Source: Pocillopora damicornis (lineage: Eukaryota). From it: a stretch of DNA of 64,000 bases. Positions 1-6,000 of the stretch are shown here, in pieces. The position numbers are program-made. The stretch spans positions 992,001-1,056,000 of the forward strand of contig NW_020845264.1 in NCBI RefSeq assembly GCF_003704095.1, written 5' to 3'. Positions within the stretch are counted from its first letter, which is position 1. Each line of letters opens with the position of its first letter.

Positions 1-3000
1 AGGACTTGTTCGTTCTGGACTCTCTAAGAAAAACGCCATCACTTCACAAATGATCTGAGGAAAAACAAACAATACTCATGACCTTCAACAACAATAACCA
101 CGAATTCATCTTATTATCAACATCGAGCAGCACTCACTCTGTCGCCGAGGTAAAACTCAGCTGACTTGGTGCTAATTACCACCGCGGTCTCTTCTGTCCT
201 GTTGGATAGCAGTACCAATTTCCCAGGCTTTCCACCCAAGAAGCTTATGAGTTTATACCATGTGACTTTGTACCCAACTCGATAGGGTCCTGGAGCCAAG
301 ATGTCGTACGTACACAGAAGATGGATTGATTCACCTGCCAGGATGTTATCCGGGGGGACTACTGGTGTGATCTGTGGGGGACCATCCAAAATGGGATATT
401 GTTCGCGAACTGTGAAGAGATATTTAAGGTGATAGTATTTGGTGAATATCAGTTTATTGACTGTGTTGTAAAAAATTACTACTTAGCTTCTTAAAGTTCC
501 TACAGCGGCCACCGTCGAGATATCACGTAGCTTACTCCTGTTGTATACCAAATTGATGTGGTCTCTCGTCTAACCTGCTGTTGATATATTACTTACCTCT
601 ACATTTTGGTGCATATCCTATCTTACCGGGTCCACAAGGAACTTTGTCGGCTGAAAAAAAAATTCTACAATTACTTTTTTATGTATATTTTTGGCTTTTC
701 GTTTTCAAGTCAACCAGCCAACGGAAAAGGAACCAAAGAGGAGTTCTACTAGTTGGACATCATGCTGTGTCACTGGGTGAGTGCACAGCGGAGCTGAAAT
801 AATTTTGGCTTTTTTAGGGAATATATGAGGTAGTGGGTGCACCCTGTTTGGTCCGAAGGTGTGTTTAAACGAGAGTATGTAAACACAATGGTGGAGTTTT
901 AGTTTCACGGATGTTTTTAGGAATGTCTAATAAAAGCAGAGATGTCTTTCATGTGTTTACATAGCCTCATGGAAACACTCGCGAGGTTGGCAGATTACGA
1001 GACAGTCATAACAACCCAAGACACTTCACTGAGTTTAGTTTGAAAAAGAAACCTACAAATATACTTGTACCAAGGTGGAGTTGCTTGCCTGACAAATTTT
1101 AATCACCTTCTTTAGCGCAGTAAGCCGAGCAATCGTCCGTCCTCTTTAAATGATAAACTAAGAAGCCACCACAGTGAATCACGCGAACAGGTAACCGCCA
1201 CAAGCAACAAAACCTGTCCACTCCCTCCCATGCTACGCATGCGCTGCCATTCTTCTCCTCTCCAAACTCGGGATGTCCCGCGGGTTGCAACCAAATCTGA
1301 GCATGCGTACCACACGAACCAATCTCAGGGCAGCTCGTAGGAATTTCGGCGGGAATCCCATCAAGCTCCAACTTGTACCAAGCCTCCTCTAACTTGTTAT
1401 CACACAGGGGGAGCACTGAGTCCACTTGATTGGACTGTGCACGTGCAGGAATGTCGAGAATTTTGTGACCTGATGGGTGACACTGTGGTTTGTCTACGGC
1501 ATAAATGAAGATGACAATTTACTGTGATGTAGAAATGACGTCGCTGAGGAGCGAGTGTAAATACTAATATCTCAGTCACCTCTTCTAAACTGTCGCTATC
1601 AAAGAAACCTGCATCTTTGCAAATGTTTCAAACGGAAGAAAAAGAGCGTAGCAGTCAAGATATCGGTGAAAAGAAAATGTTTGAGTCAAGTTGATGGGTC
1701 TAGTATTGAGTATTAATCGAGTTTCCTGGTGTGAGGTCAGTAATCACATGGAAACTACAACAACAACCACAACAACACCAGATAAGAGGACATTTGGTAA
1801 ATGCATAACCATATGACCTTACAGAGTAAATTGCTCATTCTTTCACTGATATGACCATTCCAGTTCACAGATCATCGTGATGATTAGATAAGACATGTCT
1901 AAACAACGGAAATTCAATAAAGTCGTTTCCGATGAAATCTTCCGTATGAGTATTGGGTCAATTTTTGCTGCGTTTGTGCCTTTGGCCTCCCAGAACCCCT
2001 ACCCCATAACTGAAGCCAGATATAGACCCCATCGTAGTCTTTTGAGCAACTGTAATTTTCGCACTCCCAAGTTAGTCACTTTCTGGTTATGCATTTACCA
2101 TATGAAGCCTTTTAAAAAGGAAAGCACGACTTGAAATACGGTAACAATCTTTCACGCGCGAAATCACGAAAATGTGCAACCTCTTTCTAGTAACCCTATT
2201 GAAAATGCAATTCCACTATAGTCAATCCAGTTGTGAAAATACGACCCCAATCAGAGGCACATTCCCATTTGCTTATAAGGAAGTACTCCTCTCCTCCCNN
2301 NNNNNNNNNNNNNNGTTATTCATTACTCTTTGTTAATATAACGATAATAATCTTTCTCCCACCTCCAACTGTGAAGAGTTTTTCAATCCATTGAAGCACT
2401 TCATGGTCAATTCTTGAAAATAACGCGACGTCCCTTGTAGTGGAAGAGCAAGTCGGTCCGTACGTGTAAACACCAACTACAGCCCAATGACCGTCCTGCT
2501 TGATAACAACCGGGCTTCCTTGATCAGTTGAACACATTCCTTTAGTTCCAGCTACAGCACACCACGATTTATCTAACATTTTTCCCTTGCTCCTGTCTCT
2601 GAAACTCCGATGACAATCCCGGCCAGGAGTTAACAAAACATCACTTTGAACGAGCGTTTTAAACTGGGAACTTCGCCCAGATAAGTGACCCCAGCCCGTA
2701 ATCTTTCCGAGTAGACGGCGCGAGACGTTGTTGGTCTCAAAATCTGGCAGTTTCGCGTGTGATACGGGAAGATCATCAGGCAGCATAACTTTGCGTGCAA
2801 GATACAGTAGACCGAAGTTACCAGTTGAAGCTGAAGCATTATACTTAGGATATACAAGCGCTCTCAGTACCGGTGCTGTGTCTTCGCCTCGTGCTTGAAG
2901 ATCGACATGATGATTGCCAACTCTGATGAACACTGTCGAGTGATCGCTATCCACATTGTGTTTTGAATTCAATTTCCCTTTCACGAGTTTAGTACACAAG

Positions 3001-6000
3001 GCTGATGATAAAATCCATTGCTCCTGAATTAAAACTCCGCTACACTTCACAGACCTCACGAACACATGCCAAGGAAATCTTTCTCTCAAGGGATAATGCG
3101 TTTGCTTGCGTGTATTGAATGAATGGCCATAGTGTACATCGTAAGAGGATGTTAACGGTAGAAAACAAAGAGCCAAAAAGATGTTAAAGGCAGCCATTGT
3201 ACATGGTATCTCTGTATACGTGTTCCGCTTCCGACGTTATGCTGACAGTTTATGCCCTAATGGTTTTGTTATTTACCACACGGGGTAATCGGTAAATATT
3301 TGTAGGTCGTCACCGGCTATTCCGCTAATTGGCTCTCATTACCAAAATAACAGCTCTTTACAGAAGCTCACACTCACTTGATGGTTTGCAAAGTGATATG
3401 TTTCCTGGCGGCAGATCAAATAAATATGTTGAACATTTGCTTACCATTAAAATTTATCACTGATAACAGAAAAGTATTCTTGAAAAATATGCTCTCTCGG
3501 ATATTTCCGCAATCGACGGAGAGTTTAAAGTTTCAAACTCAAAATTCTTACATTAAATCCGTGTCATTTTTTGACCACGAAACACTACGAAGGGTCACGA
3601 AAGGTGAAAAACTCCTTGTCACGTATTTTTATGTAACACACGGAAATAACTCAAGTGAGAAGACTTTCCTCACTCCTATAACACGACAAAAAAAATAATA
3701 AATATAAATAACAGTTGACTCACACGAAAATTTACTGAACAGCCCAACAAGGTTGACGATGGTACAAAGTGTAAAGGTGTGTGGGCTCTGAATGTCCTGA
3801 AGTAAATTCAATCTCTGTTACAAATAACTTGAGACACAACGGGAAGAAGTCTTAAAGATAGTTAAAGAAAACAAACATCAGAAGGGAAACCATGTTAGTG
3901 TTTTAATCGAGAGAGAAGGTCACCGGCCAGGAGCGCATTGAAACGACAGCAAATTGAAGAAAGAAAAGCACAATAGGATGGTTCTGTTTGCTTCAGGTTA
4001 CGAAGACTTCTTCACAGGGGTAAGGCGTGGTTGACTTTTATCATGGATCATTATGCCACTCTTTTATTGATTGAGATCGATCAATTTCTTCAAAGGCTTT
4101 TTTTTGTGGGGAAGATAGTATTAAAAATGGCCAGGTTTTGCGCGAAAGGAAAATTCACTTGAATTTTTAGGTAATATGACTGTTTTTACAACAAAAGTTA
4201 ACAAGCAGGAAGGCGTTGAAGCGTGGTGTACATTGCATGACACGCACTCGGATTTCCGTCTCCATTCAAGATAGCATTTCAGTATATGATACCCAAGAAG
4301 TCTCGACATTTAAACTCTGAAAGTACCTCTGAGATAAAGTTTTTCATGTTTCGTCACGCAAATTACTTTTCTGATTTCTAGCGGTCACATTTATCGACGG
4401 GAGGGAGGGGGGGAATTTTTGTTGTCACATAAAAATTTACCCAATACCCCCATGTAAGACTCTCCCCTTCCAACAGTTATAATTCTTATCATTCCCCCCT
4501 CCTTTGGGGGTTATGTACAAATACTAATATTAAAAATCTATACAGGTAATTACAATATAATTTTAGATAAAAATGTTTGACATTGAGCAAAGCCGGGTTG
4601 TTCAAAGCTGGGTTAAGATAACCCAGGGTAAATGAAAAATCTGATTTCAGATCTGGAAACTTTAAAGGAAAATTCAGTATTAGTCTTTTTGTCCACAATT
4701 TGGTGATTGGATGCACTAAAAAGAATAGAGAAAATTATGCCAAAAAGGCTTTTCAAAAAAGGAATGAAGAGACTGGGATTAAAATTTAATCCTAGAAATT
4801 TAATCCAGGGCTAGCACTAATCAGCCTTCGAAACAGATGGCTGATTAGTAAGTTCCTTGTATAACTGTACGACTACTGAGCTTGTCAAAATGAAAATTAG
4901 CTTCAAAGACATATTTTCTATATTCCACCGATGCTATATGGATAATTTACTTTATTGGAAAACCGTAGCTTGCATAGTCAAGCTCCTGAAGGAAGGAGGA
5001 GGAGGAGAAAGTGTGAATGGGATAAAAGAAATACTCAATTTTCTCTATTCCCACTTTTCTATCTGGTTGCGACGACTGATCCCCCCACCCTAGGCTCCGT
5101 TGTTCTGCGTGTTATACATCAGTATCGCTAGATGGCTGAGGGGAGAGGTTGGAGGATTTTGGTTGTGTCACACAATAAAATTTACCCGATCCCCCTCTAG
5201 GGTCCTGAAGTATTTTATTGATCCCCCCTTATTGACCTTCCATGCAAGAATTGACTCCCTCCGTTCCCCCTGAAAACCATGTGATTTCACCCCCAAATCC
5301 TTCCCCCCTGCCACCCCTGGTGATAAATAAACACCGGTTTATATATATTCTAGGGTGATCAGATAAAGAAGCGAATTTTCCTCACAGGATTCAGAGGCAG
5401 GAGCTCCTGTCAGTGACCAGGAAGAACCGTGTAATGTCTCATTCGTTTCCCTTTTTCATTTCATTCTGGAAAAAAGTGCGTAAAATTTCTTGAACGAGTA
5501 TTCAATCAAATTGTTTAAATGATTAAGACGAAAGAAATATTTCCTGCGGTGTTACCTAAGTTCAGCCACGACTTTACAGACTATTGATGACTTAATATTG
5601 GCTGCATCTGATCTATTTTCACAGCGAGTGCACTTTTCTCCTAGTCTCTTCTGTTTTGACGTTTATCTCTCTTCCATTTCTAGTATACTTTAAACTGATT
5701 TCATCAACTCAGTCGATAACGTAAATTACCCACCGGAGAGAGTTTCCAAAGCTGACGTTTCCAGCGTTAGCCCTTCGTCAGAGCGAACGGAAGATTTTTT
5801 GTAGGTAGTGTCTGATTATATGCAGGAAAATGGAGCTACGCTGGGAACGTGGTAACTTGGTGTAACGTGTAATATTGTTGAGATGAATTTCCGAAAAAAA
5901 CCCTAGAACTAAAAAGTTTGTGCATTTAAACATTCACAACCAACAATTCCCCAGTTCGCTCTGACGAAGGGCAAGACGTCAGCCTTAGAAACTTTTTACG

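What the first reader, a model, noticed from the sequence alone, without database searches (positions are those of the whole stretch)
1107..3197. Possible fusion of a dead serine protease to a VWDE-like D8C protein
Seen: the protease ORF carries the only clear signal peptide nearby and has a phase-1 donor right after the S1 domain (TVG G|gtggga, 2363). The D8C exon opens on a phase-1 acceptor (ccgtag|ac, 1493), so direct splicing gives G+AC = Asp in frame. The ORF's last residues (GRKIIIVILTKSNE) look like intron read-through. Established: vertebrate VWDE has its signal peptide directly before D8C. Inference: a secreted protein with architecture SP, pseudo-protease, D8C and further domains, a candidate extracellular-matrix or mucus component. 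An optional mini-exon near 1580-1615 is possible.
[Added by the scan's program, not by the reader: the finding's places include an assembly gap (unread letters, written N; its length is only estimated) at 2299 to 2314. Whether the letters on both sides are continuous or in frame is not known: test that first.]
Basis: partly seen in the sequence, partly recalled or inferred. Interest (0 to 1): 0.65.

Follow-up and report, generated by a model that had tools for sequence, protein, structure and literature searches.

The report
Dead protease exon upstream of VWDE-like gene
A signal-peptide-bearing, catalytically dead trypsin-like exon ends in a splice-donor-like site kept across its relatives and may be the first exon of the neighbouring VWDE-like matrix-protein gene, but no transcript or fused relative could be found to prove the join.

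Summary
On the minus strand, an ORF (ATG 3197, stop 2318-2316) encodes a signal-peptide-like start and an S1/trypsin domain. All three catalytic residues are replaced. An exon at 1493-1107 encodes a complete D8C/D10C domain and is followed by an Ig_VWDE exon. That gene runs off the window's left end.

The assembly gap (2299-2314) lies one base past the ORF's stop, inside the proposed intron. No exon or reading frame crosses it.

New evidence comes from 31 relatives. In all of them conservation stops at the Gly whose codon holds the proposed donor (G|GT). The tails after it are 1-64 residues long and frameshifted between close relatives. The next residue fits GT+RAG in most. This supports a conserved phase-1 donor and an intron read-through tail.

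The join to D10C remains inferred. The phases match. I found no convincing alternative signal-peptide exon and no canonical poly(A) signal in between. Against it, 0 of 32 family ORFs continue into D10C, and no fused protein appeared in any library searched. I had no transcript data or orthologous DNA.

Estimates: fusion about 0.5, standalone pseudo-protease about 0.3. Interest is modest.

The parts
2363..3197 (-). Exon 1: start codon, signal-peptide-like N-terminus (MAAFNIFLALCFLPLTSS) and catalytically dead S1/trypsin domain. 835 nt, phase 0 in, phase 1 out.
   Evidence: Pfam Trypsin 1.1e-20. Triad replaced. Best 8-residue hydrophobic stretch has mean 3.23. No signal-peptide predictor was run. 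Coordinates.
2357..2366 (-). Proposed phase-1 splice donor GGAG|GTGGGA (last exon base 2363).
   Evidence: The Gly codon that holds it is invariant in 32 of 32 family sequences, and conservation stops there.
2316..2362 (-). Read-through tail (GRKIIIVILTKSNE) and stop codon TAA (2318-2316). Read here as the start of an intron.
   Evidence: Tails of relatives are 1-64 aa, not conserved, and frameshifted between close relatives.
2299..2314 (.). Assembly gap (16 N, true length unknown), one base after the stop codon and inside the proposed intron.
   Evidence: The flanks do not overlap. Not filled.
1494..2362 (-). Proposed intron 1 (869 nt as written, gap included).
   Evidence: No AATAAA or ATTAAA on this strand in it. 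No Rfam match in 1-4500. No convincing signal-peptide exon.
1107..1493 (-). Exon 2: complete D8C/D10C domain with 10 Cys. 387 nt, phase 1 in and phase 1 out.
   Evidence: Pfam D8C_UMOD 4e-9. GP2 decoy module 7p6r at 1e-10, over residues 8-126 of the 128 translated. Cys spacing.
597..650 (-). Exon 3: 18-residue two-cysteine piece. 54 nt, phase 1 to 1.
   Evidence: Too short for a Pfam scan.
138..409 (-). Exon 4: first part of an Ig_VWDE-type immunoglobulin domain. 272 nt, phase 1 to 0.
   Evidence: Pfam Ig_VWDE 1.6e-6, 28.4 bits against a cut-off of 28.1. Coordinates.
1..54 (-). Exon 5 (start only). The gene runs off the left end of the window.

Best explanation
The ORF at 3197-2363 is the first coding exon of a secreted protein. 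It encodes a signal peptide and a trypsin-fold domain that cannot cleave, because its triad is Leu/Asn/Gln and it has no IVGG activation N-terminus. The exon ends in a phase-1 splice donor that looks conserved across the whole family. The 14 residues up to the stop are intron read-through.

In this window the donor most likely joins the phase-1 acceptor at 1493. That would place the dead protease directly in front of a D10C domain, a two-cysteine piece and an Ig_VWDE domain of a VWDE-like gene that continues off the window.

Shown: the domains, the dead triad, the splice-site letters and phases, and the loss of coding constraint exactly at the donor.

Inferred: that the donor is used, that its partner is the D10C exon, and the function. 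I propose that the dead S1 domain serves as a binding module, as in other inactive S1 homologues (my own knowledge, not tested here), at the tip of an extracellular-matrix or mucus-type protein.
For: Domains.

The family is dead throughout. His is present at the His57 site in 0 of 31 sequences, Ser at the Ser195 site in 0 of 32, and Asp at the Asp102 site in 2 of 32. No IVGG-like motif occurs in 32 of 32.

Donor: Gly279, the split codon, is one of only 17 invariant columns among 32 sequences whose identity to the window's ORF goes down to about 30%. After it the tails are 1-64 aa long. The next residue is E in 24, G in 3, K in 2, T in 2 and Q in 1. Thus 29 of 32 fit GT followed by GAR, GGN or AAR.

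Frameshift in the tails: the tail core HITGSFPG read one base on gives ISPGHFP, which is found in P0160 and P0166. Only 1 of 100 shuffled 8-mers gave such a match.

The donor's consensus score is in the top 3.2% of GT sites in the window.

Partner: the D10C exon has no Met and needs a phase-1 upstream exon. No other signal-peptide-like ATG exon with a phase-1 donor after its hydrophobic core was found in 1494-2298. The candidates in 3200-7800 have weak donors. There is no AATAAA or ATTAAA between the ORF and the D10C exon. The three later junctions of the gene use the same kind of sites, and exons 2 and 3 are also phase 1-1. The junction codon gives Asp just before the first Cys. The D10C paper describes a conserved Asp-Pro-Cys there in GP2 and UMOD (passages).
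Against: No junction was observed, and I had no RNA data.

0 of 32 family ORFs continue into D10C, and all 32 match only Trypsin in Pfam. Ten of the 27 near-length hits come from contigs over 100 kb, so they are genomic ORF calls that say nothing about splicing. The other 17 come from contigs of 1.2-8.7 kb of unknown kind. If any of those are transcripts, they are unspliced.

No fused protein was found. The unrestricted-length search listed only short orthologues and low-identity multi-trypsin proteins. Eleven of the latter were scanned and none had D8C or VWD. The 'longer' searches found none from the protease side (514-2000 aa) or the D8C side (225-2000 aa).

The donor has G at +4 and A at +6, so it is only moderately canonical. 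P0172 has Q after the Gly, which fits a donor poorly.

The phases would match by chance one time in three.

The gap may hide sequence. Variant poly(A) hexamers such as AATGAA (2326-2321) and AGTAAA can be read by eye on this strand.
Confidence: 0.5

Rival explanations
1. Two separate genes. One is a single-exon, standalone secreted pseudo-protease of about 280-300 aa whose C-terminal tail is real but unconstrained. The other is a VWDE-like gene whose own signal-peptide exon was missed because it is weak, hidden in the gap, or upstream.
For: Every family member seen is a stand-alone ORF of 188-355 aa. Six have a stop only 1-2 codons after the Gly, which gives a tidy protein end. No fused protein is in any library searched. 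A weak candidate first exon exists at 1898-1869 (MSYLIITMI, donor TCT|GTGAAC). The gap could hide more. Variant poly(A) hexamers lie near the stop (read by eye).
Against: Tail lengths of 1-64 aa with frameshifts between close relatives would be unusual for the real end of a secreted protein. The invariant Gly followed by Glu, kept down to about 30% identity while everything after it diverges, looks like nucleotide constraint on G|GTGAG. The candidate exon at 1898 would give a leader of only 9-10 residues with a poor donor. There is no canonical poly(A) signal.
Confidence: 0.3
2. The donor is real, but it joins a short unrecognised terminal exon, either in 2298-1494 or in sequence missing at the gap. 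The pseudo-protease is then a two-exon standalone gene.
For: The donor evidence is as above. 55 open phase-1 candidates exist in the interval. The gap length is unknown.
Against: None of the 55 candidates stands out. There is no canonical poly(A) signal in the interval. No near-length relative shows a conserved alternative C-terminus. The D10C exon would still lack a first exon.
Confidence: 0.1
3. The scaffold join at the gap is wrong or much sequence is missing, so the two exons are not neighbours in the genome.
For: The gap lies between them. A 42-nt stretch at 2168-2209, 90-131 nt from the gap's lower edge, matches at 81% a stretch 4 nt from another gap at 27553, which hints at an unresolved repeat.
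Against: The gap is written as only 16 N. Strand, order and phase of the two exons fit. Nothing else speaks for a misjoin.
Confidence: 0.1

Closest known systems
[quoted passage not shown]
   Same: A D8C/D10C domain followed by an Ig_VWDE-type domain. VWDE is listed among D10C-bearing proteins in PMC8930769 (passages).
   Different: The VWD and EGF parts cannot be seen because they are off the window. Here no separate signal-peptide exon precedes D10C. A dead S1 domain would sit there instead. The Ig_VWDE match is marginal (28.4 bits against a cut-off of 28.1).
GP2 / uromodulin decoy module (beta-hairpin plus D10C)
   Same: Exon 2 aligns to the GP2 decoy-module crystal chain 7p6r at E 1e-10 over residues 8-126 of the 128 translated. 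It has 10 Cys with gaps 26, 24, 6, 25, 10, 1, 11, 14, 4. The GP2 gaps are 22, 22, 6, 25, 7, 1, 11, 15, 5, computed from residue numbers.
   Different: No beta-hairpin is encoded before D10C. No ZP module can be seen. A two-Cys piece with C-x11-C spacing follows D10C rather than preceding it.
Catalytically inactive S1 homologues (e.g. haptoglobin, HGF, azurocidin, arthropod serine-protease homologues; recalled, not searched here)
   Same: A trypsin fold is retained with six aligned cysteines, while catalytic residues are lost.
   Different: This family loses His57 and Ser195 in every member and Asp102 in 30 of 32. It also loses the IVGG N-terminus and is not close to any solved protein. The best match is prostasin at E 3.4e-14.
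Multi-trypsin / CUB-trypsin mosaic proteins in the protein library
   Same: They share the Trypsin domain at 24-30% identity.
   Different: They have many S1 domains with CUB or LNR domains. None of the 11 scanned had D8C or VWD.

Membership tests
Peptidase S1 (Pfam PF00089 Trypsin) | Sequence match to the S1 fold above the curated cut-off | tested here: met
   74.9 bits against a cut-off of 20.6. 32 of 32 family members match.
Peptidase S1 (active enzyme) | Catalytic triad His57, Asp102, Ser195 | tested here: not met
   Leu, Asn and Gln in the alignment to prostasin. In the family: 0 of 31 His, 2 of 32 Asp, 0 of 32 Ser.
Peptidase S1 (active enzyme) | Activation N-terminus (IVGG-type) at the start of the domain | tested here: not met
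   The Pfam match starts at profile position 10. No [IV][VIL]GG in the first 90 residues of any of 32 sequences.
Peptidase S1 | Conserved disulfide cysteines | tested here: met
   Six Cys of the domain (52, 68, 195, 213, 222, 250) align with Cys of prostasin. Pairing was not tested.
D8C/D10C domain (PF23283) | Profile match and ten cysteines in the D10C spacing | tested here: met
   37 bits against a cut-off of 27, full profile 1-88. GP2 at 1e-10. 10 Cys.
VWDE | Ig_VWDE domain after D10C | tested here: met
   28.4 bits against a cut-off of 28.1, from one exon only. Marginal.
VWDE | VWD domain and EGF repeats | not testable with these tools
   The gene leaves the window at position 1.
   No signal-peptide-like ATG exon with a phase-1 donor after its hydrophobic core in 1494-2298. 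The vertebrate arrangement itself was not checked.
Trypsin-D10C fusion protein (proposed) | Spliced junction 2363^1493, or a relative with both domains in one chain | tested here: inconclusive
   No fused relative. No RNA data or orthologous DNA were available.
Uromodulin/GP2 | ZP module and beta-hairpin before D10C | tested here: inconclusive
   No hairpin is encoded in exon 2 before the first Cys. A ZP module, if any, would be off the window.

The most novel reading that the evidence does not exclude
A conserved, so far unannotated family in which a wholly dead trypsin-fold domain is the N-terminal module of a VWDE-like (D10C, Ig, presumably VWD/EGF) secreted protein. This would be a domain architecture not found in any protein library or paper searched here. 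The 31 'standalone' relatives would then all be first exons read through into their introns.
Probability: 0.45. Interest if true: 0.45.

Novelty: new variant of a known kind. Interest (0 to 1): 0.35.

Why it matters
If the join is real, the VWDE-like gene of this animal, and probably of the many relatives that carry the same exon, is mis-modelled or missing in public protein sets. VWDE-type proteins would gain a new N-terminal binding module, which bears on how such matrix or mucus proteins recognise partners.

Even without the fusion, the work defines a conserved family of secreted, fully inactive S1 homologues. It has 32 sequences whose identity to the window's ORF goes down to about 30%, and a splice-donor-like end that is kept.

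This is a gene-model question. It would be settled quickly with transcript data.

Tried and rejected
Searches for a fused relative all found none:
- The D8C exon against longer proteins: 26 candidates, none scored.
- The protease against longer proteins: 2 weak hits at 24-25% identity, neither with D8C in its precomputed Pfam domain list.
- The every-protein search: the best 150 were inspected by length and 11 long ones scanned, with none fused.
- One scan of genome contigs (bacteria and archaea only) in the hope of host contamination: 8 pattern matches, none confirmed.

With the good donor (exon end 1581) it does not keep the frame.

Intronic RNA gene as a sign of an intron: no Rfam match in 1-4500 at E up to 1.

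Repeat at the gap: only a 42-nt, 81% match to a stretch beside another gap.

My first frameshift test, with a 6-residue core, had a permissive control (18 of 200 shuffles matched). It was replaced by an 8-residue test (1 of 100).

Tools that gave no answer: cluster members, the Atlas and structure prediction. As a result, the source records of the relatives, any look-alike clusters and a fold of the domain stayed unchecked.

The joined (spliced) protein was deliberately not built, searched or folded. Every search was done exon by exon.

Literature: six searches found no paper describing a Trypsin plus D8C/VWDE architecture. The library covers open-access papers only. Supplementary Data 2 of PMC9117669 (VWDE-like proteins across phyla) may bear on the N-terminal architecture of invertebrate VWDE, but supplements were closed.
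Full report
**What is there.** Everything is on the minus strand. An ORF runs from ATG 3197 to the stop TAA at 2318-2316 and encodes 293 aa. It starts with a hydrophobic, signal-peptide-like leader, MAAFNIFLALCFLPLTSS. 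Its best 8-residue hydropathy (3.23) is the highest among ATG-started frames with a usable phase-1 donor on this strand between 1400 and 7800. No dedicated signal-peptide predictor was available.

The ORF matches Pfam Trypsin at E 1.1e-20, covering profile positions 10-220 of 220. Against solved structures the best match is prostasin (E 3.4e-14; 315 distinct chains at E up to 1e-5). In that alignment His57, Asp102 and Ser195 are Leu, Asn and Gln, while six cysteines align.

Downstream, exon 1493-1107 matches D8C_UMOD over the full profile (E 4e-9, 37 bits against a cut-off of 27). Exon 409-138 matches Ig_VWDE marginally (28.4 bits against 28.1). The D8C exon aligns to the GP2 decoy-module crystal chain 7p6r (E 1e-10) from residue 8 to 126 of its 128 translated residues. 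It has ten cysteines. Passages of PMC8930769 say that D8C is really a ten-cysteine 'D10C' domain and that VWDE carries one. The cysteine gaps here are 26, 24, 6, 25, 10, 1, 11, 14, 4. GP2's are 22, 22, 6, 25, 7, 1, 11, 15, 5, computed from the residue numbers quoted in those passages.

The corrected exon table is:
- E1 3197-2363, phase 0 to 1.
- E2 1493-1107, phase 1 to 1.
- E3 650-597, phase 1 to 1.
- E4 409-138, phase 1 to 0.
- E5 54-1, which runs off the window.

A VWD domain and EGF repeats therefore cannot be seen.

**The gap.** The N run at 2299-2314 starts one base after the ORF's stop and 48 nt after the proposed donor. No exon or reading frame crosses it, so the question of continuity in frame does not arise for any coding claim. 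What the gap leaves open is the length and contiguity of the proposed intron (2362-1494).

The two flanks do not overlap. The only repeat signal is a 42-nt, 81% match of 2168-2209 to 27509-27549, beside another gap. A 98%-identical relative (P0154) ends its ORF at the same stop. That concerns the read letters before the gap, not the gap itself. The gap was not filled.

**The splice sites.** The donor is GGAG|GTGGGA with last exon base 2363, phase 1, seven residues after the end of the Pfam match. It is the best of five GT sites in the last 32 codons. By a crude consensus score it is in the top 3.2% of GT sites in the window.

The acceptor is ccgtag|ACAAAC with first exon base 1493, phase 1. 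The D10C frame is closed by a stop at 1521-1519 and holds no Met, so the exon must start between there and the first Cys. The only other AG in that stretch is a phase-0 site whose exon would start at 1482, and no decent phase-0 donor exists for it. The junction codon G+AC gives Asp.

**New comparative evidence.** A search that reads every protein of a 1.84-billion-protein library found 4219 hits at E up to 0.001 and 13 at E up to 1e-30. The word-based near-length search found 27 relatives at 44-98% identity. All come from ENA or Logan and none is named.

I aligned the window's ORF with all 27 of these plus four more distant short hits (P0007, P0009, P0010, P0015), giving 32 rows. The long multi-domain hits were left out. 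The findings are:
- The family is dead throughout: 0 of 31 have His at the His57 site, 2 of 32 have Asp at the Asp102 site, 0 of 32 have Ser at the Ser195 site, and none has an IVGG-like N-terminus.
- The Gly whose codon holds the proposed donor is one of only 17 invariant columns.
- Immediately after that Gly, conservation ends. Tails are 1, 2, 2, 2, 2, 2, 4, 7... up to 64 residues long.
- The first tail residue is E in 24, G in 3, K in 2, T in 2 and Q in 1. Thus 29 of 32 fit GT followed by GAR, GGN or AAR.
- Tails of close relatives are frameshifted versions of one another. HITGSFPG read one base on gives ISPGHFP, which is found in P0160 and P0166, against 1 of 100 shuffled controls. An earlier 6-residue test had a permissive control (18 of 200).

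I read this as loss of coding constraint exactly at a conserved G|GTRAG. The DNA of the relatives could not be seen, so GGT is inferred.

**Is D10C the partner?**

For:
- The phases match.
- The D10C exon needs an upstream phase-1 exon with a start and a leader.
- None was found in 1494-2298. The best candidate, 1898-1869, gives only MSYLIITMI with the donor TCT|GTGAAC.
- No AATAAA or ATTAAA lies between the ORF and the D10C exon on this strand.
- The later exons of the gene are of the same phase class.

Against:
- 0 of 32 family ORFs run on into D10C, and all 32 match only Trypsin. Ten of the 27 near-length hits lie on contigs over 100 kb and are plainly unspliced genomic ORF calls. The other 17 lie on 1.2-8.7 kb contigs of unknown kind.
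- No fused protein appeared in the unrestricted search. Eleven long hits were scanned and carry only Trypsin, CUB or LNR domains. The two 'longer' searches also found none.
- Variant poly(A) hexamers can be read near the stop (by eye).
- The gap may hide sequence.

Interestingly, no NCBI- or UniRef-sourced protein of this family appeared in any form. Public annotation therefore supports neither reading.

**Mini-exon.** With the good donor GAG|GTGACT (exon end 1581), neither nearby acceptor keeps the frame. In addition, 55 open phase 1-1 candidates arise in the interval by chance. The mini-exon is not supported.

**Verdict.** The 'read-through tail and real donor' part of the interpretation gains good support; I put it at about 0.75. 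The fusion itself is the single most likely reading at about 0.5, but it is unproven. A standalone pseudo-protease is at about 0.3, and other partners or a misjoin at about 0.2 together.

The function is inference: a dead S1 domain acting as a binding module at the N-terminus of a D10C/Ig(/VWD/EGF) secreted protein.

Six literature searches found nothing on such an architecture. I read passages of PMC9117669, PMC8930769 and bioRxiv 10.1101/2023.11.05.564681. All other papers were seen only as search listings.

The organism was not identified. The window was not taken for human.

Noticed in passing
window 7759-8178 and 14223-15059 (+): Two near-identical tubulin exon sets about 6.5 kb apart (Pfam Tubulin 5e-26 and 2e-25). 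This looks like a tandem pair of tubulin genes.
   Followed up: partly
window 16671-17783 (-), 33490-36121 (+), 38523-41981 (+), 55897-57060 (+): A cluster of rhodopsin-family 7TM receptor genes (Pfam 7tm_1, 3e-29 to 2.5e-46). The one at 55897-57060 is a single long ORF and, by eye, has a Lys in the last helix as opsins do. This was not tested.
   Followed up: partly
window 31677-32069 (+): An ORF with long Asp/Glu runs and Gly-Ser-Tyr repeats and no Pfam match. It may be an acid-rich secreted protein or simply low-complexity sequence.
   Followed up: no
window 597-650 (-): Exon 3 encodes an 18-residue piece with two Cys 11 residues apart. That is the same spacing as the disulfide of the GP2 beta-hairpin (C48-C59 in PMC8930769), but here the piece follows D10C instead of preceding it.
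   Followed up: no
window 3184-3204 (-): A short out-of-frame upstream ATG (3204-3202; six codons, then a stop) sits 7 nt before the main start codon of the pseudo-protease ORF.
   Followed up: no
window 19327-19426, 27553-27626, 36296-36305: Three further assembly gaps. The stretch beside the gap at 27553 shares a 42-nt, 81% match with 2168-2209, near the gap in the finding, which hints at a dispersed repeat that broke the assembly.
   Followed up: partly
window 26004-26795 (+) and 21874-22431 (+): ORFs that look like exons of a glycosyltransferase. The Galactosyl_T match is weak (19.4 bits, below the cut-off of 23).
   Followed up: no
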